Positions 5,950-59,058 of a stretch of 64,000 nucleotides of DNA are shown here, piece by piece. Both the position numbers and the translations under genes were made by a program. Below the pieces are notes generated by a model. It saw nothing but the letters and a program-made list of their open reading frames with translations, ran no database searches and was not told the DNA's origin. Source of the DNA: Patescibacteria group bacterium (GTDB taxonomy: Bacteria > Patescibacteriota > Microgenomatia > UBA10105 > UBA927); contig JAHJMO010000026.1 in the NCBI GenBank assembly GCA_018821245.1, positions 15,518 to 79,517 on the forward strand. Reading direction: 5' to 3'. How positions within the stretch are numbered: position 1 is the stretch's first letter; each line of letters opens with the position of its first letter.

Positions 5950-5975
5950 TTTCATTTCTGGGGGGTGTTCAAGCC

Positions 5976-30714: not shown

Positions 30715-30715
30715 A

Positions 30716-30870
30716 GATAAGAGGAATCCAGTGTAAATCTGGGGCTGTGCCGCAACGGTAGCCCTGTCGATGTCGTTTTACGACATAATGACCGGGGAGC
30801 CCGGAACTCATCTTTACCAAAAACAATCCCGAGCAGGAGAACTACGCGTAAGCGGAGAATGGAAAAATCT
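30716..30870 (+). promoter_or_regulatory. Cobalamin (B12) riboswitch aptamer
   Basis: GAGGAATCCAGTGTAAATCTGGGGCTGTGCCGCAACGGTAGCC aligns almost base-for-base with the conserved core of the E. coli btuB leader (GGGAAUCCAGUGCGAAUCUGGAGCUGACGCGCAGCGGUAAGG). Downstream helices GTCGTTTTACGAC and CCGGGGAGCCCGG, and a B12-box-like AATCCCGAGCAGGAG. Confidence 0.7.
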
Positions 30871-32943: not shown

Positions 32944-33405
32944 ATGAACAATCTGCCCGATGATACTCAAATTCGCGCGAACAATACTCCGCCGGGGACT
33001 AACAACACGGCTTCGCAGACGGCGCCATCCGCCGGAGGCGCGTTTCTTAAGGAAGTTGAGAGGCCTTCCGCGGTTTCTTCTGAGGTGTCGATACGCCCCG
33101 CCACAGCAGAGACAGAATTACCGAAAGAGGTAGCGTCGGCAGGAGTGACGTTGAGACCCACAAGTGTCCCGATTCCGCCGAAGCTATCGCAAATGGGTGT
33201 TAAGCCTGCGGGAAACAATGTACCCACGCAGCCCAAGGCAACAACTGTCGCCCTGCCGCTTACCGATGACCAGATCGCTCAAGGGCTCCATCAGGGAATA
33301 ATGAGCTCATGGAGATGGCTTGCACAGTGGTGTCTTCGCCGCCTGAAACAATTACACGTTGGACTGAAAGCAATGCACGGGAAGTTAACAAGGGTTCGCG
33401 CGTAA
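32944..33405 (+). CDS. Hypothetical Pro/Thr/Ala-rich protein
   Basis: Low-complexity 153-aa ORF with a C-terminal amphipathic W/R-rich helix; stop TAA 3 nt before the next ATG (translationally coupled). Confidence 0.4.
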   Translation: MNNLPDDTQIRANNTPPGTNNTASQTAPSAGGAFLKEVERPSAVSSEVSIRPATAETELPKEVASAGVTLRPTSVPIPPKLSQMGVKPAGNNVPTQPKATTVALPLTDDQIAQGLHQGIMSSWRWLAQWCLRRLKQLHVGLKAMHGKLTRVRA

Positions 33406-33407
33406 CC

Positions 33408-35756
33408 ATGTCAGAACAATTATTAGATCTTACCTATCGTTTGGAGATGTTTGGAATAAGTCTCCTGTTTATCGCCTTGTTTCTGGCGGGGATGGCGCTT
33501 CTGGCCTACGGCGTGTTTTTGCTGTGGAAATACCGCGACAGAGAAAAGCAATCGCTTGAGTACGCGCTTCTTCAGGTGGCGGTGCCGCGCGACAATGAAA
33601 TAAAAATAGACGCATCCGAGCAAATGTTTGCAAGTCTGCATGGTATATATCACGGTGGTTTTTGGTCGTTTCTTACGCCGTCTCCGCATCTGTCGTTTGA
33701 GATTGTGGCGAAAAAAGAAGATATCCGGTTCTATATTTCTGTTCCGCGCAAATTTACGGATTTGGTCGAAAAACAAATTCACGGCGCTTATCCCGGAGCG
33801 GATATAAGGACAGTGGATGAGTATTCTATTTTTTCCGAAAAAGGCAATGTAGCCTTTGCAGCACTGCGACTGAAAAACCCAGACTATTTGCCTATCCGCA
33901 TCTTTCGGGATCTGCCGGTTGATCCTCTTTCGTCTATTACATCTGTTCTTGCCAAAATGCAGGAGGGTGAAGGAGCGGCAATTCAAATACTCGTCCAGCC
34001 CACGGGAGGAAAATGGCGAAACATAGGAAGGTCATATATTTCCAAGGTGAAGAAAAATGAGGCAAACCCGGAAAAAGCAAGCTTTAAAGTGGATCAAAAG
34101 TCCCTGGAGGCGATAGAACAAAAAACCAGCAAACCTGGCTTCAACGTCGTTGTCAGGATCGTTGTGTCTTCTGGGACGAAGGAATCGGCAGACATTCATT
34201 TGGAGAACATCCTTTCCTCGTTCTACCAGTTTACATCGGATCATAATGCATTTACCAAGGTCAAGCACCCCATAAAAAAATTATTCATGCTGGATTTTAT
34301 CTACAGGTATTTTCCGATTTGGAATTTTCCGTTCTTTCGTCAATATAGCGTGCTTAATAGTGATGAGTTGGCTACGGTATACCATTTGCCGAATAAATTC
34401 GTAGAAACGCCGCACGTTTTTTGGTTGAACGCCAAGCGTGCGCCAGCCCCATCACAAATCCCCTCAAGCGGGCTGTTTATAGGTGCTTCGCAATACCGAG
34501 GAGTTGACCGCCCGATTTACGTAGGCGACGACGACCGAAGGCGCCATACATATATCATTGGTAAGACAGGAACAGGTAAAACACAACTTCTGGAAGAGTT
34601 GGTTATGCAGGATATTTCCGCTGGTCGGGGGGTAGCTGTCATAGATCCGCATGGAGACCTGATCGACGGAATATTGTGCCGTATGCCGCCGGAGCGGGCA
34701 GAAGATGTAATCTATTTTGACCCGTCCGACACCGAGCGACCCATGGGGCTTAACATGCTTGAGTCATACACAGAGGAACAGAAGCATTATGTGGTAACGT
34801 CGATTGTCGGGCTTATGTACAAGTTGTATGATCCGATGAAAACAGGCATCATCGGCCCGCGTTTTGAGCACGCCATCAGGAATGCGATGCTCACGGTTAT
34901 GTGTGAGCCGGGGAATACATTTGTCGAAGTAGTCCGGGTGCTCACAGACAGTTCATTCGTTCAGGAATTGCTTCCCAAAGTGGACGATCCGGTTATTCGC
35001 CGTTATTGGACTGACCAGATTGCGCAAACCGCTGATTTTCATAAGTCCGAGGTATTGGACTATATCGTTTCGAAATTCGGCCGGTTCGTGACCAATAAAC
35101 TCATGCGCAACATCATCGGCCAGTCTAAATCATCATTCGATTTCCGTAAAGTTATGGATGAGGGCAAGGTGTTGCTGGTAAATTTGGCAAAGGGGAAAAT
35201 CGGTGAGGAGAATAGCAATTTCTTGGGTCTTATTATCGTTCCAAAGATTCTGATAGCCGCCATGAGCAGGCAGGAAGTGGCAGAAGAAAAACGGCGCGAC
35301 TTTTACCTCTATGTCGATGAGTTTCAGAATTTCGCAACGCCGGACTTTGCCCAGATTCTTTCAGAGGCCAGAAAGTATAAGCTCAACCTGATCGTTGCTA
35401 ACCAGTTTATCGGTCAGATGGAGGAAGAAGTAAAGAATGCTGTATTTGGTAACGTTGGGACACTCATCGCGTTCCGCGTGGGTGTGACGGACGCTAACTA
35501 CCTGCAGCATGAGTATCAGCCGACGTTTAATGAAATCGACCTTATCAATATCGATAAGTACAACGCATATGTCAAAACTATCGTGAATAATGAACCGGTT
35601 AAACCGTTTAGCCTGGATCTTACGAAAGACATGGGGAGGATCTATCAAACCCGCAATCCGCAGGTAGCCAAAGCAATTATTCAACTGTCGCGCCTGAAGT
35701 ACGGCAGGTCCAGGGAGTTGATCGAGGCGGAAATTGCGCATCGCGCGCGTTTATAG
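33408..35756 (+). CDS. VirD4/TraG/TraD-family (type IV coupling protein-like) membrane ATPase
   Basis: N-terminal TM helix; Walker A IGKTGTGKT; AVIDPHGDL (TraG/TrwB-type); Walker B FYLYVDEF; C-terminal TraD/TraG-like region. Confidence 0.6.
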   Translation: MSEQLLDLTYRLEMFGISLLFIALFLAGMALLAYGVFLLWKYRDREKQSLEYALLQVAVPRDNEIKIDASEQMFASLHGIYHGGFWSFLTPSPHLSFEIVAKKEDIRFYISVPRKFTDLVEKQIHGAYPGADIRTVDEYSIFSEKGNVAFAALRLKNPDYLPIRIFRDLPVDPLSSITSVLAKMQEGEGAAIQILVQPTGGKWRNIGRSYISKVKKNEANPEKASFKVDQKSLEAIEQKTSKPGFNVVVRIVVSSGTKESADIHLENILSSFYQFTSDHNAFTKVKHPIKKLFMLDFIYRYFPIWNFPFFRQYSVLNSDELATVYHLPNKFVETPHVFWLNAKRAPAPSQIPSSGLFIGASQYRGVDRPIYVGDDDRRRHTYIIGKTGTGKTQLLEELVMQDISAGRGVAVIDPHGDLIDGILCRMPPERAEDVIYFDPSDTERPMGLNMLESYTEEQKHYVVTSIVGLMYKLYDPMKTGIIGPRFEHAIRNAMLTVMCEPGNTFVEVVRVLTDSSFVQELLPKVDDPVIRRYWTDQIAQTADFHKSEVLDYIVSKFGRFVTNKLMRNIIGQSKSSFDFRKVMDEGKVLLVNLAKGKIGEENSNFLGLIIVPKILIAAMSRQEVAEEKRRDFYLYVDEFQNFATPDFAQILSEARKYKLNLIVANQFIGQMEEEVKNAVFGNVGTLIAFRVGVTDANYLQHEYQPTFNEIDLINIDKYNAYVKTIVNNEPVKPFSLDLTKDMGRIYQTRNPQVAKAIIQLSRLKYGRSRELIEAEIAHRARL

Positions 35757-35813: not shown

Positions 35814-37169
35814 ATGATTGTTTATATCAGCAACGTATCAGAAGACGTATGGCCGTTTATTAGCTCCATATCCCAGGCGCAGGCGCGTGAGTTTGAAATT
35901 CAGGAGAATGCCAATCTGGCAGAGCGCGACCTTTTTTCGTTCCCTGGCGAGGATCACTTTCTTTTCGTCTCTCCCCGGTCTATCAGCCGGACCTTTCTGG
36001 ATTATTACATAGGATTATTCGGTAATAAGCATCTTTCTGTCTCAACGCCCAAGGTCCATACAGGAGTTATTTGTGAGGATATTCTGGCGGATGACGATGT
36101 CATGGATGAAATAGCGATTGCCGCAAACGGGGCCAAGCGATTAACACTTGTTTCCTACACCGCCTCACCACAGTTTTTGGCGCTTGTGTCGGAACTTCGA
36201 AAGAAAGGTTTTAACGTGTACACTCCTGAAGCACCGGAGCAGGAGGACGCATGGACGGTAAACTTTTTCGGCAGCAAGTCCGGGATACGTCAGCTTGCGC
36301 AGAAAAGTGCGGCAGTTGAACCGGACTTCGTCATGGCGGACGGCTTGGTTTGTTCGGGTATAGGAGACGCGGCGAAAATCGCAGCAAAAAAATATATTCG
36401 CGAAAAAGGCGTTGTCGTCAAAACCAATAAAGGGCATTCAGGCGCAGGAGTACTCATTTTCCGGCAGGGAGATTTGCCCGAGAATTACGATGAGTGCGAG
36501 GAACAGATAAAAACCACGCTTTCCCGTGACGGGTATTGGGAAAAATTCCCAATTGTCATTGAGAGTTTTGTAAAAGAAAACCGTGCGGTGGCCGGAGGAT
36601 TTCCAAATGTTGAGTTTAAGATTGCCAAACACGGTGAAGTGGAGTTCCTCTACTACTGCGCGCTTAGGGTGACGCCGGAGGGGGTATTTAAGGGGATAGA
36701 AATTCAAGATGAAGCAGTGTCGGATAAGCTCGGAGCACGCATGATGGATACGGGATTCTATGTAGGCGAGCAATATGCCTCTTACGGATATCGGGGATAT
36801 TTTGACGTGGACTTTGTCGCCAGTCGAAACGGACAACTGTATGTGACGGAGTCCAATACGCGGCGGACAGGGGGAACGCACGTGTATGAAACAACAAAAG
36901 CTCTATTTGGGAAAAACTTTATGACCGAGGTATATACATTGTCAAACAATATCTATCCATTGCCGAAACGGAAACAGATTTTTTTGGAAAATCTTTTAAA
37001 CGCGCTTTCGCCGATACTGTTTGACAAAAAAAGCAAAGAAGGTTTGATCGTCGCTTCTGAGCACATCTTAAACCAGGGGGCTTTTTCCTACATCATCTAC
37101 GGCCAGACGAAAAAGCGCGCTCTTGCCATCGAGGAAAAAATGGAAGAGATTGTACAAAAGTTAGTCTAA
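35814..37169 (+). CDS. ATP-grasp fold protein
   Basis: KGHSGAGV (P-loop-like), ...E-x-N-x-R (VTESNTRRTGG) catalytic loop typical of ATP-grasp ligases; 451 aa. Confidence 0.45.
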   Translation: MIVYISNVSEDVWPFISSISQAQAREFEIQENANLAERDLFSFPGEDHFLFVSPRSISRTFLDYYIGLFGNKHLSVSTPKVHTGVICEDILADDDVMDEIAIAANGAKRLTLVSYTASPQFLALVSELRKKGFNVYTPEAPEQEDAWTVNFFGSKSGIRQLAQKSAAVEPDFVMADGLVCSGIGDAAKIAAKKYIREKGVVVKTNKGHSGAGVLIFRQGDLPENYDECEEQIKTTLSRDGYWEKFPIVIESFVKENRAVAGGFPNVEFKIAKHGEVEFLYYCALRVTPEGVFKGIEIQDEAVSDKLGARMMDTGFYVGEQYASYGYRGYFDVDFVASRNGQLYVTESNTRRTGGTHVYETTKALFGKNFMTEVYTLSNNIYPLPKRKQIFLENLLNALSPILFDKKSKEGLIVASEHILNQGAFSYIIYGQTKKRALAIEEKMEEIVQKLV

Positions 37170-37234
37170 GAACCGCGTGCTCCATTCCGGTTTCATCGCA
37201 ATTTTTCCGCTGATTTAGTACAATGATATCCGAC

Positions 37235-37306
37235 GCGCCCGTAGCTCAGCGGAAGAGCGCGTGTCTTATAAACACGAGGTGCTTGGATCGTCACCAAGCG
37301 GGCGCA
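37235..37306 (+). tRNA. tRNA-Ile (anticodon UAU, reads AUA)
   Basis: Cloverleaf: acceptor GCGCCCG/CGGGCGC (7 bp), D-arm GCTC/GAGC, anticodon stem CGTGT/ACACG with loop CTTATAA (anticodon TAT), 5-nt variable loop, T-arm CTTGG/CCAAG, discriminator A, no encoded CCA. T-loop ATCGTCA is non-canonical (A54/T58), so a tRNAscan check is needed. Confidence 0.6.
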
Positions 37307-37307
37307 C

Positions 37308-37343
37308 AATATTAAACAAATTAACAATTAACAATTAACAATG
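37308..37343 (+). repeat. Tandem heptamer array AATTAAC x4 between tRNA 3' end and the idi start codon
   Basis: attaaac aaattaac aattaac aattaac aATG; the last unit supplies the idi ATG context. Confidence 0.75.
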
Positions 37344-37901
37344 ATCGAGTTAGTTATATTAGTAGATGAGCAGAATAACCAGATTGGCACGGCCGCGAAA
37401 GATACAGTGCACACAAAACATACTCCTTTACATCGCGCGTTTTCATTATTTCTGTTTAACAGTAAAAAAGAATTATTGATCACCCAACGGGCAAAAACAA
37501 AAAAAACGTTCCCCGGTGTCTGGACCAATACGGTTTGCGGCCATCCTGCGCCAGAAGAATCGATTCTGGACGCGGCACGACGCAGACTAAAGGAAGAATT
37601 GGGGATTGTTAGAACAACTAAAACGAGGCCTGGCCTCGGAAGGAGCGACAATACGCTCCCGGCGATTACTGAAGTAACTCAATATAGGTATCGTTTTGCA
37701 GACAAAAACGGTACCGTCGAAAACGAAATCTGTCCGATTTTGGTTACTTACGCAGACATTGATCCTAAGCCAAATCCATTGGAAATCGATGATTGGAAGT
37801 GGATGCCATGGAATGAATTTCTTAAAGATATTAAAACGAATAAAGACAAATATTCCCCTTGGTGCCGCGAAGAAGCGCAAATCCTTGCCCCCTTTATTTA
37901 A
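37341..37901 (+). CDS. idi: Isopentenyl-diphosphate delta-isomerase, type 1 (Nudix)
   Basis: LHRAFSLFLFN ... TFPGVWTNTVCGHP matches the IDI-1 signature (TNTCCSHP) and Nudix fold. Confidence 0.85.
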   Translation: MIELVILVDEQNNQIGTAAKDTVHTKHTPLHRAFSLFLFNSKKELLITQRAKTKKTFPGVWTNTVCGHPAPEESILDAARRRLKEELGIVRTTKTRPGLGRSDNTLPAITEVTQYRYRFADKNGTVENEICPILVTYADIDPKPNPLEIDDWKWMPWNEFLKDIKTNKDKYSPWCREEAQILAPFI

Positions 37902-37919
37902 CTTGTAGCTTGATGTAAA

Positions 37920-37957
37920 GCCACGACAAAATTCCGCTCGAGCGAGTGTTTGTCGTG
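37920..37957. terminator. Strong hairpin between convergent idi and tsaD (candidate bidirectional terminator)
   Basis: CCACGACAAA...TTTGTCGTGG 10-bp perfect stem with an 18-nt loop containing the palindrome GCTCGAGC; no clear U-tract. Confidence 0.35.
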
Positions 37958-38008
37958 GAGAATGTTTGACAAAAGCTAGGTGGCACGACATTGTTTGCTC
38001 TTGGCCGA

Positions 38009-39139
38009 TTATGCCTCCCCAACTTCAACCGCCAGATCAGGAACAGCCGTAATTTTTTTCCAGTCAGTTGATTTTCCGCGGAAAAAAGCATAAGCCCCGA
38101 TGTAGGCGGCGTTGTCGGTACAGAGTTCCGGAGACGGCACGTGAATTGTTATATTGTTAAATTGTTTTATTGTTGAAAAAAACTTTTCTCTAAGACGGAT
38201 ATTTGCTGCAACCCCGCCGGAGAGCAAAATACTTTTTGCTTTATATTTTTGAGCCGCCCGCAGTGTTTTTTCGACCAAAACATCAGTTATTGCTTCCTGA
38301 ACCTCGTAAGATGATTGTTCTATTGTTCTATTGTTATATTGTTGATTACGTTTCAGTTTATCGATCTCACGAAGAATGGCGGTTTTAAGGCCGCTGAAGG
38401 AGAAGTTAAGAGAATCATCGTTTAACATAGGGCGAGGGAGGGGAATCGTGAATTGTGAATTATGAATTGTGAATTTAGCAGCTGTTTCTTGGATGGCAAC
38501 ACCACCTCTATTGCCAAATCCAAGCAGTCTCGCAGCTTTGTCAAAACATTCTCCAGCGGCGTCATCCAGCGTTCCGCCGAGCCAGCATAGTTCCTTAACT
38601 GATTTCATTAGATAAAGTTCGGTGTGCCCACCGGAAACAACAAGAGATATGGCAGGGAATTTAATTGTTTTGTCATCCCAGACTTGATCGGGGATCTGCG
38701 TTTTTGAAGTCAGATTCCCGTCTTCGCGGGAATGACAAGAAAGCGGCTCAAGAAAATTCGCATACATGTGCGCCAGCACGTGATTGACGGGGATTATGGG
38801 TTTGTCGGTTACATACGCAATGGTTTTGGCGGTTTCAACGCCTGTCAGAAGCGAGCCTATCAACCCCGGCCCGACTGTCACGGCAATGGCGTCAATAGAA
38901 TCATTGATACATTGAAACATTGATACATTGACACCTGTTTTTAACGGTTTTAACGCTTCAATGATGACAGGGATGACGCACTTGAGTTGCTCGCGGGCGG
39001 CAACTTCCGGCACTATCCCGCCGTATTTTTCATGCATCGCCGAGGATGAAGCCACGACATTGCTTAATATTTTCGTTCCATCCTGAACTACGGAAGCAGC
39101 CGTCTCGTCACAAGAAGTTTCGATAGCGAGGATTTTCAT
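38009..39139 (-). CDS. tsaD: tRNA N6-adenosine threonylcarbamoyltransferase TsaD (Kae1/Gcp family)
   Basis: MKILAIETSCDETAASVV N-terminus, HxxGH-type metal motif region (SGGHTELY), C-terminal GG..AN motif; carries four in-frame AT-rich tandem-repeat insertions. Confidence 0.9.
   Translation of the reverse strand: MKILAIETSCDETAASVVQDGTKILSNVVASSSAMHEKYGGIVPEVAAREQLKCVIPVIIEALKPLKTGVNVSMFQCINDSIDAIAVTVGPGLIGSLLTGVETAKTIAYVTDKPIIPVNHVLAHMYANFLEPLSCHSREDGNLTSKTQIPDQVWDDKTIKFPAISLVVSGGHTELYLMKSVKELCWLGGTLDDAAGECFDKAARLLGFGNRGGVAIQETAAKFTIHNSQFTIPLPRPMLNDDSLNFSFSGLKTAILREIDKLKRNQQYNNRTIEQSSYEVQEAITDVLVEKTLRAAQKYKAKSILLSGGVAANIRLREKFFSTIKQFNNITIHVPSPELCTDNAAYIGAYAFFRGKSTDWKKITAVPDLAVEVGEA
38143..38176 (-). 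repeat. Tandem 8-mer array (AACAATWW) in-frame in tsaD, insertion 1
   Basis: Coding strand aacaataa aacaattt aacaatat aacaattc; encodes TIKQFNNITIH. Confidence 0.7.
38314..38346 (-). repeat. Tandem 8-mer array (AACAATAN) in-frame in tsaD, insertion 2
   Basis: Plus strand attgttct attgttct attgttat attgttga; encodes NQQYNNRTIEQ. Confidence 0.7.
38448..38476 (-). repeat. Tandem heptamer array (AATTCAC/AATTCAT) in-frame in tsaD, insertion 3
   Basis: Plus strand gtgaatt gtgaatt atgaatt gtgaatt; encodes KFTIHNSQFTIP, closely matching the HD-protein insert. Confidence 0.8.
38903..38934 (-). repeat. Tandem 8-mer array (CATTGAWA) in-frame in tsaD, insertion 4
   Basis: cattgata cattgaaa cattgata cattgaca; encodes NVSMFQCINDSI. 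Confidence 0.65.
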
Positions 39140-39149
39140 GTGTTCAATT

Positions 39150-39587
39150 CTACTCGAGGCCCAGGAGTTTAGCCAGTTGAGACGTTGATGGAGTATGGAT
39201 TTTAGGGATGACTGCCAGTTTGGCACCGAATTGACTAGCTTGTTTTTGTTTTTTATCTAAGATTGGGTCTCCTTCGGTAACTGCAATTACTTGGGGTTTA
39301 ATTTGGTTGACCAAGCCAAAATATTCTTCATCTGATTTCATCGGCGGGAGAGTAATTACTTCATCGACAAATTTTAAAGCTTCTAACATTTTTTTCCGTT
39401 GAATTTGCGAGTGGATCGGGCGGCTGTCGCCTTTCATCCGCCGAACATTAGCATCTGATTCCAGCGCCACGATCAGCCAATCACCCAGAGTCTTAGCTTG
39501 TCTAAGAAATTCGATGTGGCCAAAGTGCAAAAGATCGAAGCAGCCGCCCACCAAAACCACCATCTTTTTGTTTTTCATAGTAGACAT
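39150..39587 (-). CDS. Cytidylyltransferase-like nucleotidyltransferase (HxGH motif)
   Basis: VVLVGGCFDLLHFGH (HIGH-type) motif of the cytidylyltransferase/RfaE-domain-II family; 145 aa. Confidence 0.6.
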   Translation of the reverse strand: MSTMKNKKMVVLVGGCFDLLHFGHIEFLRQAKTLGDWLIVALESDANVRRMKGDSRPIHSQIQRKKMLEALKFVDEVITLPPMKSDEEYFGLVNQIKPQVIAVTEGDPILDKKQKQASQFGAKLAVIPKIHTPSTSQLAKLLGLE

Positions 39588-39611
39588 ATTAGTCTAATGA
39601 GCCGGATAAGT

Positions 39612-41006
39612 CTAATTTGATATACCCCGCAAGTACACCGCCTGCCACGGACGGAAGCTTGAGTAAAATGTTTGGTCCTGAAGGGTTTGTCCGTTTTTTG
39701 TTACAAGATATCGGAAGCTCGTTTTTGCCCCCCATGCCGCCCAGTCTACTTGTTTGACAACACCCGGGGCAAGCGTGGGGTCGTCTTGATAAAGAGGAGG
39801 CGGCGGCGCGGAGATATCCCACATTTTCTGTTCAAGTATCTGGGAAAATCTTCCGTCTTTTGCGCCATACAGATCAAAGACGAGACTCATTTGAGAAGTG
39901 TTGGGTTTTGCCTGAATGAGGATATAAGAAGGAGTGTCGTTTTTGATTTTAAGGTCAACTGATGGCGCAAAGACCGTTGCGTCAATGCCGGGCTTATATC
40001 CGGCTTGTTCATAATATTGGACCCGGTATGAGTGAGCATGGCGCTCGACGATTGAGAGCCCCGCGGCAAGCGCGGCACGAAAGAGAGTTGTTGACACTTG
40101 GCAGACGCCCCCACCGTCTCCCAGCACAGTTTTGCCGTCTTTTATGATGTACGCTGATTGATAGCCGGTGGCGGCGGAAATGTCACCGACTGCATTATTG
40201 AATGAAAATATCGATCCCGGCGCAATGAGAAGTCCGTTGATTCTGGACGCGGCAAGAACGACATTGTGTACTCTGCCGGGTATGGAATGCGCAAATTTCG
40301 AATATCCTCGTCCGATAAGCTCCCTGACGCCAAAAGAGTTCGCTTGGCCCGTGGTGATGGCGGCCTGTACGCGTTCGACGGGAAGATGGATAATAAACAC
40401 GTATCTGGAAGAAGAAACACCGGTAAGGGCATCCTGAAAACGCTTTTTGGCTGCGTCCGGATCCACGCGTCTCCCATCTCGCGAAGGCCGGAACGCGACG
40501 ACTCTTCCGTTCGCAAATTGGAATAGAGCGTCCTGCTCTGGAATATTTATGTGTGACGATAGGTCTGACAGAACATCATCCAAAAGCTGACTGTTCCAGC
40601 GGAAATACGGCGACAAATCCGTGGATCGCTTGATGAATTTTTGATAGAAATCGGAAAATATATATCCGGAGCGCCCGACCTGATATGCCTGTGTTGCAGA
40701 AAGCGTTGCGTCATACCCCAGATCAAGTTCCTGGCCCGAAAGCGTTGCTACCTCGTTTTCAAACCGGAATTCAAATGTTGCCCGCGTGAACGGTTCGTTT
40801 TTGGAAAGCCAATATCCCTTTATCTCTTCCGGCGTTTTTCCATCGAAAACGATATGGCCCACGGATACGCCACGGTAAGCTCTCCCTTTGTAGTAATGTT
40901 CAAATGCCCAGAGGGCGAAGGATGCCGTAATAACGATAAAGACTATGCCAATGAGGATGCCTACGGAGAACGAATAAAGAAAAGATGTTTTCTGCGTTCT
41001 TCTCAT
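39612..41006 (-). CDS. VanW-family protein
   Basis: N-terminal TM anchor; GGGVCQVSTTLF motif diagnostic of the VanW domain. Confidence 0.75.
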   Translation of the reverse strand: MRRTQKTSFLYSFSVGILIGIVFIVITASFALWAFEHYYKGRAYRGVSVGHIVFDGKTPEEIKGYWLSKNEPFTRATFEFRFENEVATLSGQELDLGYDATLSATQAYQVGRSGYIFSDFYQKFIKRSTDLSPYFRWNSQLLDDVLSDLSSHINIPEQDALFQFANGRVVAFRPSRDGRRVDPDAAKKRFQDALTGVSSSRYVFIIHLPVERVQAAITTGQANSFGVRELIGRGYSKFAHSIPGRVHNVVLAASRINGLLIAPGSIFSFNNAVGDISAATGYQSAYIIKDGKTVLGDGGGVCQVSTTLFRAALAAGLSIVERHAHSYRVQYYEQAGYKPGIDATVFAPSVDLKIKNDTPSYILIQAKPNTSQMSLVFDLYGAKDGRFSQILEQKMWDISAPPPPLYQDDPTLAPGVVKQVDWAAWGAKTSFRYLVTKNGQTLQDQTFYSSFRPWQAVYLRGISN

Positions 41007-41031
41007 GATATGATAATTGTAGCGCTTTAGT

Positions 41032-42618
41032 ATGGATGACGAAATCGGCAAATCAACGCAATCACAAGGCGGGGTGGTGATGGCCTATCCTCCGGAAGGC
41101 GTGAAAGGAGACAATGAGCAAAATACGGCCACCGACGGGAAGCACTCCGGTATTTCGGGGGATTCTCCACAGGCGTATGAGCCGGAAACAGTCGTTGTTC
41201 CTCCAGCGGCTACTTTTTCGGCCAATGCATTTATCCCAAACATTCCGAAAGCCGGAGGATCCGGCGGAGCAACTTCCGGTGGCGCGCAAACACCATCTTC
41301 TTCCGTTTCTTCATGGAAGAGGCGGATTTTGTCATTGGCAATCCTTTTTATCATTGCGGTTGCGTTATTTTTCGGCGGACGGTTTGTCGTCGGATATCTA
41401 GCCCGTTCCAAAGAGGTAACGATTTCTTATTGGGGGTTGTGGGAGAATGAAGCCGTAATACGCGGGATTCTTAACGATTTTGAAGCAAAAAATCCTAAGA
41501 TAAAAGTGCAATATGCAAAACAATCCCACAAACAGTACCGGGAGCGCCTACAAGCCGCAATTAACCGCGGTGATGGTCCGGACGTGTTTCGCTTTCACAA
41601 TACGTGGGTTGCAATGCTCAAAAACGAGCTTGCGCCGGTACCGAAAAACATTATGTCACCGGAGACATTTTCCTCAACATTCTACCCGACGGCAACGAAT
41701 GATCTTGTTGCCGGAGGAACGATATATGGAGTTCCGCTCATGATTGACGGATTGGGCTTATATTACAACGAGGATATTTTTACCAGTGCCGGGGTATCAC
41801 CTCCTACCACATGGGTCGAGCTTCTGAACATAGTTCCTAAGCTTACAGCAAAAGAAGGCAGCACTATTATGACTTCCGCTATTGCCCTGGGAACTGTTGG
41901 CAACGTTGAGCACTTCAGCGACATTTTGGCCTTGATGTTTTTGCAAAATGGTGCCAATCTCGCAGCTCCAACAGGGACACAAGCAGAAGAGACGCTCATT
42001 TTCTACCATAACTTTGCAGATCCAGCCAATCCGTACTATACATGGAACGAGACGTTAGACAATTCAATATACGCTTTTGCTATCGGGCGTGTGGCCATGA
42101 TTCTGGCTCCTTCATGGCGGGCATTTGATATACAGGAAATGAATCCCAGTCTCCATTTCAGAGTCGCACCGGTTCCGCAGCTTCCCGGAAATAATGTGAC
42201 GTGGGCTTCGTATTGGGTAGAAGGCGTTTCGGAGAAAAGTAAATATCAGGAGGCGGCTTGGAAGCTTATATCGTATTTGGCAGAAAGAGATGTTGTTTCG
42301 AAGTTATATACCGAAGCGTCAAAAACCCGGCTTTTTGGTGAACCATATGCCAGAGTAGACCTTGGTAATCAATTGACTGCGGACCCAATCGTTGGGGCAT
42401 ATATAACACAGGCGTCTTCTGCCCGTTCTTTTCCTTTAGCATCCCGGACGTTTGATAACGGTCTCAACGACAAAATGAGTAAATATCTGGAGGATGCTGT
42501 AAATAGTGTATCCGGTGGGGTAGCCCCTTCTGCGGCTCTTCAAACAATGAACGCTGGGTTTCGCCAGGTTCTCACTACATACGGATTGACATCCGGCGCT
42601 GCCCCAAGCACACAGTGA
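41032..42618 (+). CDS. Extracellular solute-binding protein (ABC transporter SBP family 1, sugar-type)
   Basis: Low-complexity N-terminus, TM anchor ILSLAILFIIAVALFF, then an SBP_bac_1-like fold (ISYWGLWENEAV..., NPKIKVQY). Confidence 0.65.
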   Translation: MDDEIGKSTQSQGGVVMAYPPEGVKGDNEQNTATDGKHSGISGDSPQAYEPETVVVPPAATFSANAFIPNIPKAGGSGGATSGGAQTPSSSVSSWKRRILSLAILFIIAVALFFGGRFVVGYLARSKEVTISYWGLWENEAVIRGILNDFEAKNPKIKVQYAKQSHKQYRERLQAAINRGDGPDVFRFHNTWVAMLKNELAPVPKNIMSPETFSSTFYPTATNDLVAGGTIYGVPLMIDGLGLYYNEDIFTSAGVSPPTTWVELLNIVPKLTAKEGSTIMTSAIALGTVGNVEHFSDILALMFLQNGANLAAPTGTQAEETLIFYHNFADPANPYYTWNETLDNSIYAFAIGRVAMILAPSWRAFDIQEMNPSLHFRVAPVPQLPGNNVTWASYWVEGVSEKSKYQEAAWKLISYLAERDVVSKLYTEASKTRLFGEPYARVDLGNQLTADPIVGAYITQASSARSFPLASRTFDNGLNDKMSKYLEDAVNSVSGGVAPSAALQTMNAGFRQVLTTYGLTSGAAPSTQ

Positions 42619-42621
42619 TGC

Positions 42622-43563
42622 ATGAAGATTACCGTCCGTGAATCATTTTTGGCTACCATCGCGTACGCCGATATATTTGACTACCCTCTTACACTAGAAG
42701 AGTGTGATATGTGGCGCATCTGCACCCCTAATACTGATTCACGGATTCATGAATGGTCAAATATAGTAACGAGACTAAAAAAGCGCGACAGGATTTTTTA
42801 TAGCCTTCGAAGAGATAGGTCTATCATAGATAAACGGGAAGACCGCGCCCGGTGGTCAGCAAAAAAAATCAATATAGCCCGACGCATGGCGCGCGTTTTG
42901 CGTTTCATCCCTACCATCAGGCTTATAGGAGTTACAGGCGGATTGGCTATGTATAATACCGAAAAAAACGATGATATAGATTTTTTCTGTATAGCCGCAA
43001 GCGGTACTCTGTGGATAAGCCGTTTTTTGGCAGTAGCGTTTATGGAGGTATTCGGACGCCGCCGCCGGCCGGCAGATGTGCGCGTGAAAGACAAAATCTG
43101 TCTGAACATGTTTATGTCAGAAGACGCACTGTGTGTTCCTGTACAAGAACAGGATTTGTACACGGCCCACGAGGTATTGCAGATGAGGGTATTATGGGAA
43201 AGAGGTGGGGTATACAGGGCCTTTTTGCGTGCTAACGGTTGGGTACGGAATTTTCTTCCGAATGCGTGGGAAGAAAGTTCACAGTTCATAGTTCATAGTT
43301 CACAGAAAAAACCCAAAAATAAATTATTTAAAAAAATCTTAGGGGTTTTGCTGTTAACTATTAACTATTTACTAATAACTATTGAGTCAATTGCAAAATT
43401 GGCTCAACTTTGGTATATGCAAAAACATCGGACTACGGAAGTGGTTACCGACACCATGATTCGTTTCCATCCGAAAGATGCTCGCCGCCGGGTAAGAGCG
43501 GCACTTGGGAAACGATTGAAACAGTGGAACATCCCCCTTGACAATATATTTTATGACCGTTAA
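42622..43563 (+). CDS. Hypothetical protein with Pol-beta-like nucleotidyltransferase signature
   Basis: GVTGGLAMY...DIDFFCIA resembles the hG[GS]...DxD minimal NTase motif; contains two in-frame tandem heptamer insertions (43276-43305, 43354-43386). Confidence 0.4.
   Translation: MKITVRESFLATIAYADIFDYPLTLEECDMWRICTPNTDSRIHEWSNIVTRLKKRDRIFYSLRRDRSIIDKREDRARWSAKKINIARRMARVLRFIPTIRLIGVTGGLAMYNTEKNDDIDFFCIAASGTLWISRFLAVAFMEVFGRRRRPADVRVKDKICLNMFMSEDALCVPVQEQDLYTAHEVLQMRVLWERGGVYRAFLRANGWVRNFLPNAWEESSQFIVHSSQKKPKNKLFKKILGVLLLTINYLLITIESIAKLAQLWYMQKHRTTEVVTDTMIRFHPKDARRRVRAALGKRLKQWNIPLDNIFYDR
43276..43305 (+). repeat. Tandem heptamer array AGTTCAY x4, in-frame in the 42622-43563 CDS
   Basis: agttcac agttcat agttcat agttcac; encodes SQFIVHSSQ. 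Confidence 0.75.
43354..43386 (+). repeat. Tandem heptamer array WTTAACT x4-5, in-frame in the 42622-43563 CDS
   Basis: ttaacta ttaacta tttacta ataacta ttgag; encodes LTINYLLITIE. Confidence 0.7.
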
Positions 43564-56798: not shown

Positions 56799-57584
56799 TT
56801 AAGGCAACCCAAAAAGCGCACGGGCATTACGCATGACTGTTTCCTCAATTGTTTTAACCGGAATATTTTTTAGTTCTGCAGCGCGTCTGGCTATAAGAGG
56901 GATATACTTCGGTTCGTTGCGGGAGCCGCGGTGGGGAACAGGGGTAAGGTACGGTGCGTCTGTTTCCAAAAGTAACATTTCTAAAGGAATGTGGGGAACA
57001 ATCATCTGAAGTTGTTTAGAATATGTAACATTACCGTCAATACCCACATACATCCCGTATTCCTTAATCATTCTCAGATCCTGTAACCCGCCGGAAAAAC
57101 AATGGAAAACGCCGGCCGGCATTTTCGGCAGGTTATCCAGAACATGAAAGCAGTCCGCAAAAGCTTCGCGGCAGTGGATAATCACTGGCAGATTATGTTT
57201 AAGCGCCAACAAAAGCTGTTCTTCAAACAATATTTTTTGTACATCTTTCCTGCCCGCTGCTAACTCACCTTTATACATGTGATAATCAAGCCCGCATTCG
57301 CCGATGGCGATAATAGTTCTTGGTTCATAGTTATTAGTTCTGAGAAAAGATTCTAGTTTGCTTATGTCAGGTTCATGAACTGCTTCATAAGGGTGGAAGC
57401 CGACCGCGGCATAAACTACGCCGGGATATTTTTGGGACAGCTCGATTGCGGTTTTAGAGAAGTAGAGATCACAGCCCGGGTTAATGAATTTTTTGACCCC
57501 GGCTTTTTTGGCGTTGCCGATGACCATTGCCCGGTCTTGGTCATATTCCTTGAAGTTGAGGTGGCAGTGAGTATCGATGTACAT
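56799..57584 (-). CDS. tatD: TatD-family metal-dependent deoxyribonuclease
   Basis: MYIDTHCHLNF N-terminus and conserved His/Glu/Asp metal ligands across 261 aa. Confidence 0.9.
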   Translation of the reverse strand: MYIDTHCHLNFKEYDQDRAMVIGNAKKAGVKKFINPGCDLYFSKTAIELSQKYPGVVYAAVGFHPYEAVHEPDISKLESFLRTNNYEPRTIIAIGECGLDYHMYKGELAAGRKDVQKILFEEQLLLALKHNLPVIIHCREAFADCFHVLDNLPKMPAGVFHCFSGGLQDLRMIKEYGMYVGIDGNVTYSKQLQMIVPHIPLEMLLLETDAPYLTPVPHRGSRNEPKYIPLIARRAAELKNIPVKTIEETVMRNARALFGLP

Positions 57585-57618: not shown

Positions 57619-59058
57619 TTATACTATTCTTGGGAATAGTGGTTGTTCAGACTTGATGGTCGGTCCGCCGAATTGTTTTAAAATAATTTCAGCAGTTTTT
57701 GGAAGAAAGGGTTGTGATTGAGTAGCAATAGTTCGAATGTTTTGTATTGCCTGTTCAAGAATCTTCTGAAGCGCGGTTCCTGATAGAGTCCATGGCTTTT
57801 TATCGTTGATATATTGATCCGTTGTTTTTATCGTATCCCAAACACACGCAATCGCATCATGGAGCCGAAATTCCTCGATAGCTTTTTTATAATTTCCTAT
57901 GTATACATCTTTGTATTTAGCATTTATCATTGGCCATTTAGCATTGCTTGCCAGCTTTGCTGTGCGGGCAATGACGTTGCCCAAGCCGTTGGCAAGATCT
58001 GCGTTATAGAGTTCCTTAAACCGCCGTTCGGAAAAGTCGCCGTCGGCAAAAGGCGGAATTTCGCGAAGTAAGTAATATCGCAGAGCATCGCTTCCGTATT
58101 TTTCAATCATAACAGATGGGTCAATGATGTTGCCGATAGTTTTGCTCATTTTTTGTCCGTTGACGGTAAAGTAACCGTGGACAAAAAGAGTTTTAGGAAG
58201 AGACAGTTTTGCTGAGAGTAAAAAAGCCGGCCAGTAGACGGCGTGGAAGCGGATAATGCCTTTGCCGATCACATGGACATCCGCCGGCCACCATTTATGA
58301 TACGTTTTTTCGTCCCACCCAAAACCAATTCCCGATTGGTAGATATTTAAAGCGTCAAACCAAACGTAGATTCGTTGCGTAGCATCTCCCGGTACCGGCA
58401 CACCCCAATTTTTTGCCCTGGCATTCGTGCGGGAAATACTAATGTCATGAAGCGGTTGTTTAAGGAATGATAATACTTCGTTTTTTCGGAAATCCGGGAC
58501 GATTTTTAAAGTATCGGAAGAAATGAGGTCAATCAGCTGTGTTTGGTATTTGGATAATTTGAAAAAATAATTTTCTTCGCTGACTTTGTCGAGTTTCTTG
58601 CCGGGATGCTCAGAGCATTCGCCGTTTGAATCCAGTTCATCCGGGGTATAAAAAGCCTCGCAACCCAAACAGTACAGTCCTTCATACGGCTTTTTGTAGA
58701 TGTCGCCATTTCTGGCGCAAAGCTCCCAAAGTTTTTGGCTGGAAGGGAAATGGTGAATTTGGTCGCTGCCTTTTTGGAAAATATCGAACTGTACATTAAG
58801 CGACTGGGCTAATTTTTGGAAGAGTTGGGAATAGACGTCAATGAATTGTTTCACCGGCACGCCGGCTTTTTCTGCCGCCTGCACGTTTTTGAGTGCGTTT
58901 TCGTCTCCGCCGGACAGCAAACACACTTCGTCACCAAGCAAGCGCCGGTAACGCGCTATCACATCCGCCTGAACGAACTCAAGAGCGTGCCCCACGTGCG
59001 GAGCGGCGTTGGTGTAGGGAATCGCGGTGGTGAGATAGAACTTTGCCATGAGCTCCAT
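57619..59058 (-). CDS. metG: Methionine--tRNA ligase (short form)
   Basis: TTAIPYTNAAPHVGHA (HIGH), KMSKT motif (GQKMSKTIGN); class I fold; no C-terminal dimerisation domain. Confidence 0.9.
   Translation of the reverse strand: MELMAKFYLTTAIPYTNAAPHVGHALEFVQADVIARYRRLLGDEVCLLSGGDENALKNVQAAEKAGVPVKQFIDVYSQLFQKLAQSLNVQFDIFQKGSDQIHHFPSSQKLWELCARNGDIYKKPYEGLYCLGCEAFYTPDELDSNGECSEHPGKKLDKVSEENYFFKLSKYQTQLIDLISSDTLKIVPDFRKNEVLSFLKQPLHDISISRTNARAKNWGVPVPGDATQRIYVWFDALNIYQSGIGFGWDEKTYHKWWPADVHVIGKGIIRFHAVYWPAFLLSAKLSLPKTLFVHGYFTVNGQKMSKTIGNIIDPSVMIEKYGSDALRYYLLREIPPFADGDFSERRFKELYNADLANGLGNVIARTAKLASNAKWPMINAKYKDVYIGNYKKAIEEFRLHDAIACVWDTIKTTDQYINDKKPWTLSGTALQKILEQAIQNIRTIATQSQPFLPKTAEIILKQFGGPTIKSEQPLFPRIV

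What the first reader, a model, noticed from the sequence alone, without database searches (positions are those of the whole stretch)
38009..39139. Essential tsaD gene tolerates four separate in-frame tandem-repeat insertions
TsaD/Kae1 is normally about 340 aa. Here it is 376 aa, and the surplus corresponds to four AT-rich 26-34 bp tandem arrays at 38143, 38314, 38448 and 38903 that interrupt otherwise well-conserved Kae1 blocks. Repeated hits in one essential, slowly evolving gene imply either insertion into tolerant surface loops or a local hotspot.
Basis: seen in the sequence. Interest (0 to 1): 0.55.

Follow-up and report, generated by a model that had tools for sequence, protein, structure and literature searches.

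The report
Frame-locked heptamer/octamer repeats inside tsaD
A housekeeping tRNA-modification gene of a Patescibacteria (CPR) bacterium carries four short 7-8-base tandem repeats in frame, and these sit at the same places in distant relatives with a different repeat unit in each species, so they are old sites kept repetitive at the DNA level, not four recent insertions.

Summary
tsaD (38009-39139, minus strand, 376 aa) holds four in-frame arrays of about 30 nt with period 8, 8, 7 and 8. The window has 10 such arrays against 0.04 in shuffles, and 4 of the 10 lie in tsaD (P=2e-5).

- The arrays add about 21 of the ~41 surplus residues.
- One array (38144) adds about 1 residue. It overwrites native sequence and runs into a beta-strand.
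- The arrays are not four separate hits. In 26 CPR orthologues, 44 arrays fall into six fixed sites, often in the same register and with the same length, but with species-specific units. Synonymous sites between these orthologues are saturated.

Positions i and i+7 co-vary, and about half of all imperfections are exactly those needed to break in-frame stops. Non-CPR tsaD loci have no such arrays. ValRS, TsaE, RecG and MetRS carry them too.

Best reading: slippage-born hepta/octanucleotide repeats in permissive surface segments. They are length-locked because a one-unit change shifts the frame, and kept periodic by intra-array templated conversion. The protein looks functional.

This is a new variant of a known kind. 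I found no description of it in the papers I could search.

The parts
38009..39139 (-). tsaD coding sequence, 376 aa, intact
   Evidence: ORF and start; 100% identical to annotated Patescibacteria TsaD with PF00814; E=1e-69 to Aquifex TsaD; AF2 pLDDT 87.7; TM 0.85 to E. coli TsaD 4ydu
38898..38931 (-). Array A (site A, aa 70-81 VNVSMFQCINDS): coding-strand unit TCAATGTA, about 4 copies; +9 residues against Aquifex TsaD
   Evidence: TRF. Loop 67-73 plus helix 74-81, pLDDT 94-96. Orthologues: TCAATGCA in L081 and L082, TGTATCGG by TRF in L083, AAACAAAA in L003
38670..38738 (-).
   Evidence: Inverted repeat I16. Unaligned query aa 132-155 against solved TsaDs. Disordered in the model, pLDDT 42-59. 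Same element at the same site in L081, P0020. Single copy in the window. Fold not better than shuffles, z=-1.2
38443..38475 (-). Array C (site C, aa 222-233 KFTIHNSQFTIP, just before the invariant LPRP): coding-strand unit AATTCAC, 4.7 copies; +5 residues against Aquifex
   Evidence: TRF. Coil, pLDDT 83. In-register arrays of equal length with other units in L082 AATACAC, L083 TTGAAAA, L003 AAAGCAA. Nine DNA-verified arrays at this site, seven of them mapping to exactly aa 222-232
38314..38345 (-). Array D (site D, aa 266-276 QQYNNRTIEQS): coding-strand unit AACAATAG, 3.8 copies; +6 residues against Aquifex
   Evidence: TRF. End of helix 249-264, loop, start of helix 270-298, pLDDT 97. In-register octamer array AGCTATGG in L003. 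88% identical over 32 nt to array E but read in another frame (D1)
38144..38176 (-). Array E (site E, aa 322-332 STIKQFNNITI): coding-strand unit AACAATAT, 3.8 copies; adds only about 1 residue against Aquifex, so it overwrites native sequence
   Evidence: TRF. Alignment gap of 1. End of helix 314-324, loop, lead-in to strand 331-333, pLDDT 91. Orthologues carry heptamer arrays here: TTCATGA/TTCACAA in L081, L082, L001; CTAAACT in L083; ATACAAG in L003
25386..25422 (+). Same kind of array (AACAATT x5.3) in frame in an HD-domain gene (QQLTINNSQLTIN). Read directly from the sequence printed: the one unit junction where TAA would fall in frame reads TCA
43276..43383 (+). Two heptamer arrays (AGTTCAC x4.3 at 43276-43305; TTAACTA x4.3 at 43354-43383) in frame in one gene without a Pfam match (42622-43563)
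57313..57340 (-). Heptamer array in frame in the TatD gene (RTNNYEPRTI)
57915..57945 (-). Weak heptamer array (70% matches) in frame in the MetRS gene, between the catalytic and anticodon-binding domains
37319..37342 (+). Perfect intergenic heptamer array AATTAAC x3.4 between tRNA-Ile(UAU) and the NUDIX gene. One of six intergenic arrays of the same kind; the others are at 12843, 30097, 45609, 56765 and 57587

Best explanation
The four arrays are hepta- and octanucleotide simple-sequence repeats of the 'long SSR' class, sitting in surface segments of TsaD that tolerate change. They are old array sites shared across Patescibacteria, not recent inserts.

Proposed mechanism:
1. Inferred: short direct repeats arise by replication slippage or template switching. 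This process has an intrinsic preference for about 7 nt.
2. Shown for the pattern, inferred for the cause: because 7 and 8 are not multiples of 3, a gain or loss of one unit shifts the frame of a housekeeping gene and is purged. Array length is therefore locked.
3. Shown as concerted evolution, inferred as mechanism: transient misalignment between neighbouring units copies one unit onto another without changing length. The units of one array stay alike while the unit sequence drifts between species.
4. Shown: selection keeps only those imperfections that break in-frame stop codons, and favours the A-rich strand as coding strand.

The encoded peptides are by-products that the fold accommodates as a loop plus short helix (A), a coil (C), helix ends (D) and a helix end plus strand lead-in (E). 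Together with a separate 69-nt palindromic insert (site B), they make this TsaD 376 aa long.
For: - Real and non-random: 10 arrays against 0.04 in shuffles; 4 of 10 in tsaD, P=2e-5.
- DNA-level rather than protein-level: the peptides are the three frames of one unit read in turn. Of 120 relatives, 46% (site C), 47% (E), 21% (A) and 14% (D) have peptides that can be encoded by a 7- or 8-periodic sequence with <=5 mismatches in 36 nt. None of 1,199 control windows from the same proteins do.
- Orthology of sites: 44 arrays in 26 CPR tsaD genes fall into six sites. Seven of the nine site C arrays map to exactly aa 222-232. Each site keeps its own period: C 7, A and D 8, E both.
- Concerted evolution:
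  - In-register, equal-length arrays differ by substitutions present in all units. Query AATTCAC against L082 AATACAC; query TCAATGTA against L081/L082 TCAATGCA; query AACAATAG against L003 AGCTATGG.
  - Residues i and i+7 at site C are identical in 65/58/49% of 74 relatives, against 24/13/21% with shuffled partners.
  - Four-fold synonymous sites between the same orthologues are 22-43% identical, about the 26% random level. The arrays are 86-95% periodic.
- Selection footprint: 19 of 48 arrays would carry an in-frame stop if perfect. 25 of their 48 deviations lie in those triplets, where 11% is expected (P=3e-12). This is partly forced, because the ORF is open. Only 23 deviations remain over the other 532 positions.
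- Overwriting rather than insertion: array E adds about 1 residue.
- Period spectrum in 62 CPR loci: 74 arrays of period 7, 12 of period 8, none of period 6, one of period 5. There are no period-7/8 arrays in 203 kb of non-CPR loci.
- Stability: no copy-number differences inside arrays among members of 10 protein clusters at >=90% identity.
- Literature: heptanucleotide repeats are the most abundant long SSR class in many prokaryotes, and a link to polymerase slippage has been proposed. This is Mrazek et al. 2007 as summarised in PMC4679880. A preference for about four units was seen in Xanthomonas and Nostoc (PMC4692102).
Against: - No direct evidence for the conversion mechanism. No closely related genome pairs were available (best non-self relative 71% identical), so single conversion events were not seen.
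- The enrichment in tsaD is not explained: 0.66 arrays per kb against 0.087 in flanks. Other conserved housekeeping genes in the window (GroEL, BipA, GuaA, NrdD) have none.
- The narrow total length of about 31-34 nt and about 4-5 copies is not predicted by simple slippage.
- How an array of non-triplet units first enters an open reading frame is not explained. Surplus lengths of +9, +5, +6 and +1 residues are not multiples of three units.
- Unit sequences of the closest relatives are more alike than saturated synonymous sites (6/7 and 5/7 positions). Some purifying selection on the peptide, or a more recent common origin, must also act.
- Arrays D and E are 88% identical over 32 nt in different frames. 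That looks like copying between sites rather than purely local evolution.
Confidence: 0.55

Rival explanations
1. Mobile mini-elements. The arrays are small mobile or copy-pasted cassettes, comparable to Rickettsia palindromic elements or the 21-27-nt dispersed repeats of Nostoc. They insert in frame into permissive loops, and the same sites are hit again and again.
For: - Arrays D and E share a 32-nt sequence (88%), including the flanking TCA, but are read in different frames.
- Relatives carry the same octamer-type peptide (TIQQYNNxTIE) at site B or site E instead.
- Arrays and small palindromes replace each other at the same sites. L081 has a hairpin at site C. A 21-nt GC-rich hairpin interrupts the site E array of L001 and occurs at site B of L003.
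- Site B holds at least five different palindromic peptide types in relatives.
- Two proteins of one cluster (>=90% identity) differ by wholesale replacement of the site A segment.
Against: - Units are highly diverse within one genome.
- No termini or target duplications are visible at array borders. This is a by-eye reading of the sequences; no dedicated search was run.
- The 30-nt (AACAATAN)4 sequence occurs nowhere else in 64 kb.
- Orthologous arrays are in register, of equal length, with related units.
- Arrays overlap conserved codons such as TIHVP rather than sitting between them.
Confidence: 0.15
2. Four independent, fairly recent insertions into tolerant surface loops of this one gene.
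For: - The arrays are A+T-rich against the gene (26% against 48% G+C) and nearly perfect.
- Three of them add length against non-CPR TsaD.
- L001 lacks the arrays at sites A and C and is shorter there by 9 and 5 codons.
Against: - The same sites, the same length and a site-specific period are seen in orthologues down to about 42% identity.
- Unit sequences at site C across relatives are variants of one pattern (K-aromatic-x-I/V-x-N/S-x).
- Array E adds about 1 residue.
Confidence: 0.08
3. The arrays have a function. Three versions are possible:
- Slippage-prone switches that turn tsaD, and so t6A synthesis, off and on.
- RNA- or DNA-level binding platforms.
- Added basic or polar surface for tRNA binding.
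For: - Enrichment in tsaD and in other tRNA-handling proteins: ValRS, MetRS, TsaE.
- Long-term maintenance of periodicity.
- Arrays are rich in ANN codons, which by my own knowledge need t6A-modified tRNAs: 53% against 27% elsewhere in the gene.
- One cold-shock protein is reported to bind heptamer direct repeats (PMC4679880).
Against: - No length polymorphism within arrays among 10 clusters of >=90% identical proteins.
- Only 4-5 imperfect copies.
- Unit sequence differs between sites and species, so no common binding motif exists.
- The peptide charge pattern is not conserved. Examples are KAKGKRQKAKI against KFTIHNSQFTI.
- Arrays also occur in genes unrelated to tRNA: RecG, NadE, VanW, TatD.
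- ANN richness follows from A-richness.
Confidence: 0.1
4. Protein-level selection for a repeated peptide (for example a beta-hairpin with two alike strands), with the nucleotide periodicity as a side effect. Or an assembly artefact.
For: - Site C shows a conserved alternation K-aromatic-x-I/V.
- Short repeats can be collapsed or expanded by assemblers.
Against: - A 7-residue peptide that is the three frames of one heptamer cannot be explained by protein selection. The unconstrained 'x' positions co-vary most strongly: 58% against 13%.
- AlphaFold models site C as coil.
- The identical protein occurs on 4 contigs from independent sources.
- Orthologues from unrelated studies show arrays at the same sites.
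Confidence: 0.03

Closest known systems
Long simple-sequence repeats of prokaryotes, heptanucleotide class (Mrazek, Guo and Shah 2007, as summarised in PMC4679880; GGGNATC repeats of Xanthomonas and Nostoc, PMC4692102)
   Same: - Head-to-tail repeats of a 7-nt (here also 8-nt) unit.
- About four units preferred.
- Far more frequent than chance.
- Many different units in one genome.
- Slippage proposed as origin.
   Different: - The known repeats are reported mainly between genes. In coding regions the favoured units are multiples of three, and SSRs are suppressed in the middle of genes (PMC4679880, PMC4692102).
- Here the non-triplet units lie in the middle of conserved housekeeping genes, in frame.
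- They lie at orthologous sites across a whole radiation and show concerted evolution of the unit.
Cyanobacterial short tandemly repeated repetitive (STRR) heptamers (Calothrix/Nostoc; cited in PMC4692102) and TAACTGA repeats of Beggiatoaceae (PMC4679880)
   Same: - Tandem heptamers of 2-6 or more copies.
- Lineage-restricted abundance.
- Translation of such repeats yields 7-residue periodic peptides.
   Different: - Those families use one or a few fixed unit sequences per genome and are mostly intergenic.
- The CPR arrays use many units.
- No unit is shared between sites, except arrays D and E.
Rickettsia palindromic elements and other in-frame 'selfish DNA in protein-coding genes' (Ogata et al. 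2000, from my own knowledge; reviewed in PMC10969869)
   Same: - Short repeated DNA carried in frame inside conserved, presumably essential genes.
- Placed on the protein surface without loss of function.
- The 69-nt palindromic insert at site B is of this kind.
   Different: - RPEs are 100-150-nt palindromic, multi-copy mobile elements of a few families.
- The four arrays are direct tandem repeats of about 30 nt, not palindromic, and not multi-copy.
- The site B element is single-copy in this window.
Tandem repeats of Borg elements that create disordered protein regions (PMC9879509)
   Same: Tandem nucleotide repeats inside ORFs that add low-complexity peptide segments. They are DNA-level in origin.
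   Different: - From my own recollection of that paper, not re-read here: Borg in-gene repeats have unit lengths divisible by three.
- By its abstract, they are recently formed and evolve fast.
- Here units are 7-8 nt, sites are ancient, length is fixed, and most segments are modelled as ordered.
Phase-variable contingency loci (e.g. Haemophilus hepta- and tetranucleotide repeats, PMC2651432, PMC8262952)
   Same: Non-triplet repeat units inside or next to a gene, so that a one-unit change shifts the frame.
   Different: - Contingency loci have many perfect copies, vary between close strains, and sit in surface or virulence genes.
- Here there are 4-5 imperfect copies and no variation within >=90% clusters.
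- The genes here are housekeeping genes.

Membership tests
TsaD/Kae1/Qri7 (protein) | Sequence match to the family over the full length | tested here: met
   PF00814 on the identical database protein. E=1e-69 to Aquifex TsaD and 3e-66 to T. maritima TsaD
TsaD/Kae1/Qri7 (protein) | ASKHA fold with the two His of HxxxH and the Asp of CTDN, which by my own knowledge bind the metal | tested here: met
   H120, H124 and D342 are invariant in 120 relatives. The model has pLDDT 87.7. TM 0.85, rmsd 2.9 A to E. coli TsaD 4ydu
TsaD/Kae1/Qri7 (protein) | t6A synthesis activity with partners TsaB and TsaE | not testable with these tools
   No TsaB or TsaE was recognised among the 28 window ORFs scanned against Pfam; the other ORFs were not scanned. 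TsaE genes lie next to tsaD in the CPR loci L014, L019 and L045
Prokaryotic long simple-sequence repeats (unit 5-11 nt) | Head-to-tail copies of one short unit, at least about 3 copies, beyond chance | tested here: met
   TRF 3.8-4.7 copies, 86-95% matches. 10 observed against 0.04 in shuffles
Prokaryotic long simple-sequence repeats (unit 5-11 nt) | Usual location: intergenic, or in genes with units that are multiples of three | tested here: not met
   Units of 7 and 8 nt in the middle of ORFs. 44 arrays of period 7/8 in 66.5 kb of CPR tsaD, none of period 6 or 9
Phase-variable contingency locus | Copy number differs between close strains, giving on/off alleles | tested here: not met
   No length differences inside arrays in 10 clusters of >=90% identical TsaD proteins with 3-8 members each. 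Frameshifted alleles would be missed by a protein-based look-up, so read-level data are still needed
Phase-variable contingency locus | Long perfect tract | tested here: not met
   3.8-4.7 imperfect copies
RPE/MITE-like in-frame palindromic elements | Palindromic or terminal-inverted-repeat structure | tested here: not met
   The four arrays are direct repeats. Only the separate site B insert has terminal inverted repeats of 10 nt at 90% (I16), and its fold is not better than shuffles (z=-1.2)
RPE/MITE-like in-frame palindromic elements | Many dispersed copies in the same genome | tested here: not met
   Site B element: 1 copy in 64 kb with up to 3 mismatches, none in 83 other loci. The (AACAATAN)4 array occurs only at the two tsaD sites. 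Only 64 kb of the genome was available
Borg-type in-gene tandem repeats | Unit length divisible by three (my recollection of PMC9879509); recent, fast-evolving arrays (its abstract) | tested here: not met
   Periods 7 and 8. Sites shared by orthologues with saturated synonymous divergence

The most novel reading that the evidence does not exclude
The arrays are a distinct class of 'frame-locked' selfish or actively maintained repeats. They persist for very long times at fixed sites in conserved housekeeping genes of Patescibacteria (TsaD, ValRS, TsaE, RecG, MetRS). Any one-unit loss is a lethal frameshift, by the same logic that keeps inteins in essential genes. They would be kept periodic by a lineage-specific, length-preserving homogenising process, with a preferred total length of about 31-34 nt, that has not been described. 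A stronger version is that the enrichment in tsaD and tRNA-handling enzymes reflects a function tied to tRNA or t6A-dependent (ANN) decoding.
Probability: 0.2. Interest if true: 0.8.

Novelty: new variant of a known kind. Interest (0 to 1): 0.62.

Why it matters
Simple-sequence repeats with units that are not multiples of three are expected to be purged from the middle of conserved genes. Here they are enriched in one of the most conserved genes of life. They are fixed in position and length across a large bacterial radiation, and they evolve in concert while neutral sites are saturated.

If this holds genome-wide, three things follow:
- It gives a natural system for measuring length-preserving templated conversion against point mutation in organisms that cannot be cultured.
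- It helps explain part of the odd low-complexity peptides and length variation of CPR proteins, which matters for annotation, alignment and structure prediction.
- It adds a second route, besides palindromic elements, by which DNA-level processes write new surface segments into essential proteins.

Tried and rejected
- **Head-on transcription as the cause of the tsaD hotspot.** In the window tsaD runs against the GC-skew-inferred replication direction. Across 36 CPR loci, those with and without arrays have the same fraction of genes on the tsaD strand (0.59 against 0.58) and the same skew. Rejected.
- **Strain-level copy-number variation.** No differences in arrays within 10 clusters at >=90% identity. 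The query's own cluster has a single member, so no polymorphism data exist for this gene.
- **Site B element as a dispersed repeat.** No further copy in the window or in 83 loci. Its fold is no better than shuffles.
- **A known RNA on either strand.** Rfam finds only a tRNA and a cobalamin riboswitch elsewhere. Promoter and terminator scans over 37000-41200 are at or below chance.
- **'Essential-gene lock' as a sufficient explanation of the enrichment.** GroEL, BipA, GuaA, NrdD and the PBPs in the window carry no arrays.
- **Collapse to 2 units and re-expansion by 3 units as the homogenising route.** No relative is 7 residues shorter at site C.
- **Stop-free units as the main filter.** Only 29 of 48 consensus units are stop-free on the coding strand, against about 44% expected. 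This is a mild effect; the point deviations matter more.
- **Literature.** Searches for CPR/Patescibacteria with heptamer, heptanucleotide or in-frame tandem repeats found nothing relevant. Elhai et al. 2008 on very small mobile repeats in Nostoc could not be read, so the comparison with it rests on my memory.
- **The genome-contig scan.** It returned mostly relatives at 36-60% identity. Closer DNA had to be fetched by exact-protein look-up, and one of these had no DNA.
Full report
**1. What is there**

The ORF on the minus strand at 38009-39226 has its homologue-supported start at the ATG at 39139 and encodes 376 aa. It is 100% identical to a database protein annotated as TsaD of a Patescibacteria (CPR) bacterium. 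That protein is seen on four contigs from independent sources and carries Pfam PF00814.

Tandem Repeats Finder reports four arrays inside the gene:

| Window position | Period | Copies |
|---|---|---|
| 38144-38174 | 8 | 3.8 |
| 38314-38343 | 8 | 3.8 |
| 38443-38475 | 7 | 4.7 |
| 38898-38931 | 8 | 3.8 |

On the coding strand the units are AACAATAT, AACAATAG, AATTCAC and TCAATGTA. All four arrays are read through in frame.

The window holds 10 arrays of period 7/8 at TRF score >=40, against 0.04 on average in 100 dinucleotide-preserving shuffles. Four of the ten lie in tsaD, which is 1.8% of the window (P=1.9e-5).

**2. Accounting for the extra length**

I used the alignment to Aquifex TsaD (335 aa):

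| Feature | Query aa | Surplus against Aquifex |
|---|---|---|
| Array A (38898) | 70-81 | +9 |
| Site B, no counterpart in solved TsaD | 132-155 | +24 |
| Array C (38443) | 222-233 | +5 |
| Array D (38314) | 266-276 | +6 |
| Array E (38144) | 322-332 | +1 |

It is a 69-nt in-frame segment at 38670-38738.
- The segment is bounded by the inverted repeat TTGTCATCCC/GGAATGACAA (I16) and encodes ...CHSREDGNLTSKTQIPDQVWDD...
- It is a palindromic, MITE/RPE-like insert. It is present at the same site in the relatives L081/P0002 and P0020, and in another reading frame in P0003, P0010 and P0046.
- It is single-copy in this window.
- Array E is hardly an insertion at all. It replaces native sequence.

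**3. Structure**

- An AlphaFold2 model built on 120 relatives has mean pLDDT 87.7. It superposes on E. coli TsaD (4ydu) with TM 0.85 and rmsd 2.9 A.
- H120, H124 and D342 (by my own knowledge the metal-binding residues) and the glycine-rich motifs are invariant.
- Array A encodes loop 67-73 plus the short helix 74-81 (pLDDT 94-96).
- Site B is disordered (pLDDT 42-59).
- Array C is a coil just before the invariant LPRP (pLDDT 83).
- Array D spans the end of helix 249-264, a loop and the start of helix 270-298 (pLDDT 97).
- Array E spans the end of helix 314-324, a loop and the lead-in to strand 331-333 (pLDDT 91).
The segments are nevertheless not simply loops.

**4. Not a peculiarity of this gene or genome**

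- The same kind of array occurs in frame in four other genes of the window:
  - an HD-domain gene;
  - a gene without a Pfam match, which has two arrays;
  - TatD;
  - MetRS.
- It also occurs six times between genes.
- In 62 CPR loci that carry tsaD, there are 44 arrays of period 7/8 in 66.5 kb of tsaD (0.66 per kb). The flanks have 42 in 482 kb (0.087 per kb). Twenty-one loci from other phyla (203 kb) have none.
- The period spectrum is sharp: 74 arrays of period 7, 12 of period 8, none of period 6, one of period 5. Mean total length is 34 nt for period 7 and 30.5 nt for period 8.
- Array-bearing genes in the flanks include ValRS (six loci), TsaE (three), RecG (two), NadE and VanW. Three ValRS loci have an array of equal length at one site, just before the ATTRPE motif.
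- A caveat: three of the six peptide patterns used to fetch these loci were array-encoded. None of the arrays found in those loci has the query's units, so I consider the bias small.

**5. The key result: fixed sites, changing units**

- All 44 arrays of the 26 array-bearing CPR tsaD genes map to six sites. The counts are B 13, E 11, C 9, A 6, D 3, and 2 at an N-terminal site. Seven of the nine site C arrays align to exactly query aa 222-232.
- A codon alignment shows arrays in the same register and of the same length, but with different units:

| Site | Query | L082 (71%) | L083 (67%) | L003 (57%) |
|---|---|---|---|---|
| C | AATTCAC | AATACAC | TTGAAAA | AAAGCAA |
| D | AACAATAG | decayed | none | AGCTATGG |
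| A | TCAATGTA | TCAATGCA | TGTATCGG (TRF) | AAACAAAA |

- L081 (71%) also has TCAATGCA at site A.
- Differences between close relatives are single substitutions present in all units.
- Among 120 relatives, I asked whether the site peptide can be encoded by a 7- or 8-periodic sequence with <=5 mismatches in 36 nt. It can in 46% (C), 47% (E), 21% (A) and 14% (D) of them. None of 1,199 control windows passes. Each site has its own preferred period.
- At site C, residues i and i+7 are identical in 65%, 58% and 49% of 74 relatives. With shuffled partners the figures are 24%, 13% and 21%.
- Four-fold synonymous sites between these orthologues are 22-43% identical, which is at the random level. The arrays cannot be passive relics. 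They are homogenised, or regenerated, in place without change of length.

**6. Footprints of selection**

- With a period of 7 or 8, all three reading frames of the unit are translated in turn.
- Nineteen of 48 arrays would contain an in-frame stop if they were perfect. Of the 48 deviations from consensus in those arrays, 25 lie in exactly those triplets, where 11% would be expected (P=3e-12).
- That excess is partly forced, because the ORF is open. Only 23 deviations remain over the other 532 positions, or 4%.
- The coding strand of the arrays is A-rich (A 48%, T 26%, C 16%, G 9%). This makes them rich in ANN codons: 53% against 27% elsewhere in tsaD.

**7. Mechanism**

The best-supported reading has three parts.

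- Origin. The arrays are hepta/octanucleotide simple-sequence repeats born by slippage or template switching. The excess of heptanucleotide repeats in prokaryotes and a link to polymerase slippage were proposed by Mrazek et al. 2007, as summarised in PMC4679880. A four-unit preference is known from Xanthomonas and Nostoc (PMC4692102).
- Length lock. In a housekeeping ORF, one-unit changes are frameshifts, so length is locked.
- Homogenisation. Transient misalignment between neighbouring units can copy one unit onto another without a length change, which gives concerted evolution.

The pattern is shown. The mechanism is inferred.

Rivals:
- Mobile cassettes.
  - For: arrays D and E are 88% identical over 32 nt in different frames; arrays and small hairpins replace one another at the same sites.
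  - Against: unit diversity, and orthology in register.
- Four recent independent insertions. This is contradicted for sites C and D.
- A switch or binding function. There is no length polymorphism in >=90% identity clusters and no shared motif.
- Protein-level selection or an assembly artefact. Both are excluded by the three-frame periodicity and by independent assemblies.

Still unexplained:
- Why tsaD is so rich in arrays. Head-on transcription was tested and rejected, and other conserved genes in the window have none.
- Why the total length is so narrowly about 31-34 nt.
- How non-triplet arrays first enter an ORF.

**8. Comparison with what is known**

- The arrays work like long SSRs, but they break the usual rule that in-gene repeats have triplet-multiple units and are suppressed in mid-gene.
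- They resemble Rickettsia palindromic elements in being DNA-level passengers in essential genes. Only the site B insert is palindromic.
- They differ from Borg in-gene repeats, which by my recollection of PMC9879509 have triplet-multiple units and by its abstract are young.
- They differ from contingency loci, which have many perfect copies and vary between strains.
- I found no description of in-ORF hepta/octamer arrays in CPR in the library I could search. That library is incomplete.

**9. Verdict**

Novelty: a new variant of a known kind. Interest: 0.62.

Noticed in passing
window 37235-37342: A tRNA-Ile with anticodon UAU lies one gene away from tsaD. It is followed after 11 nt by a perfect heptamer array (AATTAAC x3.4) that runs into the start codon of the NUDIX gene at 37341.
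   Followed up: partly
window 30698-30829: A cobalamin riboswitch (Rfam RF00174, 38 bits) lies upstream of a 647-aa ORF without a Pfam match (30982-32925). The region also holds an anaerobic ribonucleotide reductase (27226-29343).
   Followed up: no
L001 (tsaD match 412-1449, site E) and L003 (tsaD match 5001-6110, site B): A 21-nt G+C-rich mini-hairpin sits in frame. It reads CCTGCCTCGCCGGCAGTCAGG in L001 and CCTGCCTGCCGGCAGGCAGGG in L003. In L001 it interrupts a heptamer array. This resembles the very small mobile repeats described in Nostoc, a comparison from my own memory.
   Followed up: partly
L025 6834-6873, L027 5554-5586, L034 6960-6996: ValRS genes downstream of tsaD carry heptamer arrays of equal length at one site, just before the ATTRPE motif. 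The units are CTACAAA, ATACAAA and ATCAAAA. L027 ValRS has four arrays.
   Followed up: partly
L014 6240-6275, L019 10866-10917, L045 6209-6508: TsaE, the partner ATPase of TsaD, lies next to tsaD in these CPR loci and also carries period-7/8 arrays. In L019, and for the 6489 array of L045, the array lies between the SPTF and DxYRL motifs. In L014, and for the 6209 array of L045, it lies at the 5' end of the ORF.
   Followed up: no
proteins P0078 and P0150 (one cluster at >=90% identity): The two proteins are nearly identical, except that the whole site A segment is replaced. INALSAIRYQPIIIKN becomes EPKKSLALSTKLSFEEIIMRH, a version seen in other lineages (P0071, P0114). This suggests recombination or rapid turnover at that site.
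   Followed up: partly
window 38144-38176 and 38314-38345: The two octamer arrays of tsaD are 88% identical over 32 nt, including a flanking TCA, but are translated in different frames. The sequence occurs nowhere else in the window.
   Followed up: yes
alignment of 120 TsaD relatives, query aa 128-160 (site B): Relatives carry at least five unrelated repeat-derived peptide types at this one site:
- CHSREGGNL...IPDQVGDD
- VIASxNEAIPSGSP...ARDD
- SSSFIVHS...STMNHEP (apparently two inverted heptamer arrays)
- SSRA...SRDN
- TIQQYNNxTIE
   Followed up: partly
window 37921-37958: A 19-nt inverted repeat (CCACGACAAAATTCCGCTC/GAGCGAGTGTTTGTCGTGG) lies between the convergent NUDIX and tsaD genes. It is a likely bidirectional terminator.
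   Followed up: no
window 33309-35756 and L083 13225-15573: A type IV secretion coupling-protein-like ATPase (TrwB/TraG-type domains) lies near tsaD in both the query and a relative whose TsaD is 67% identical, with conserved gene order around it.
   Followed up: no
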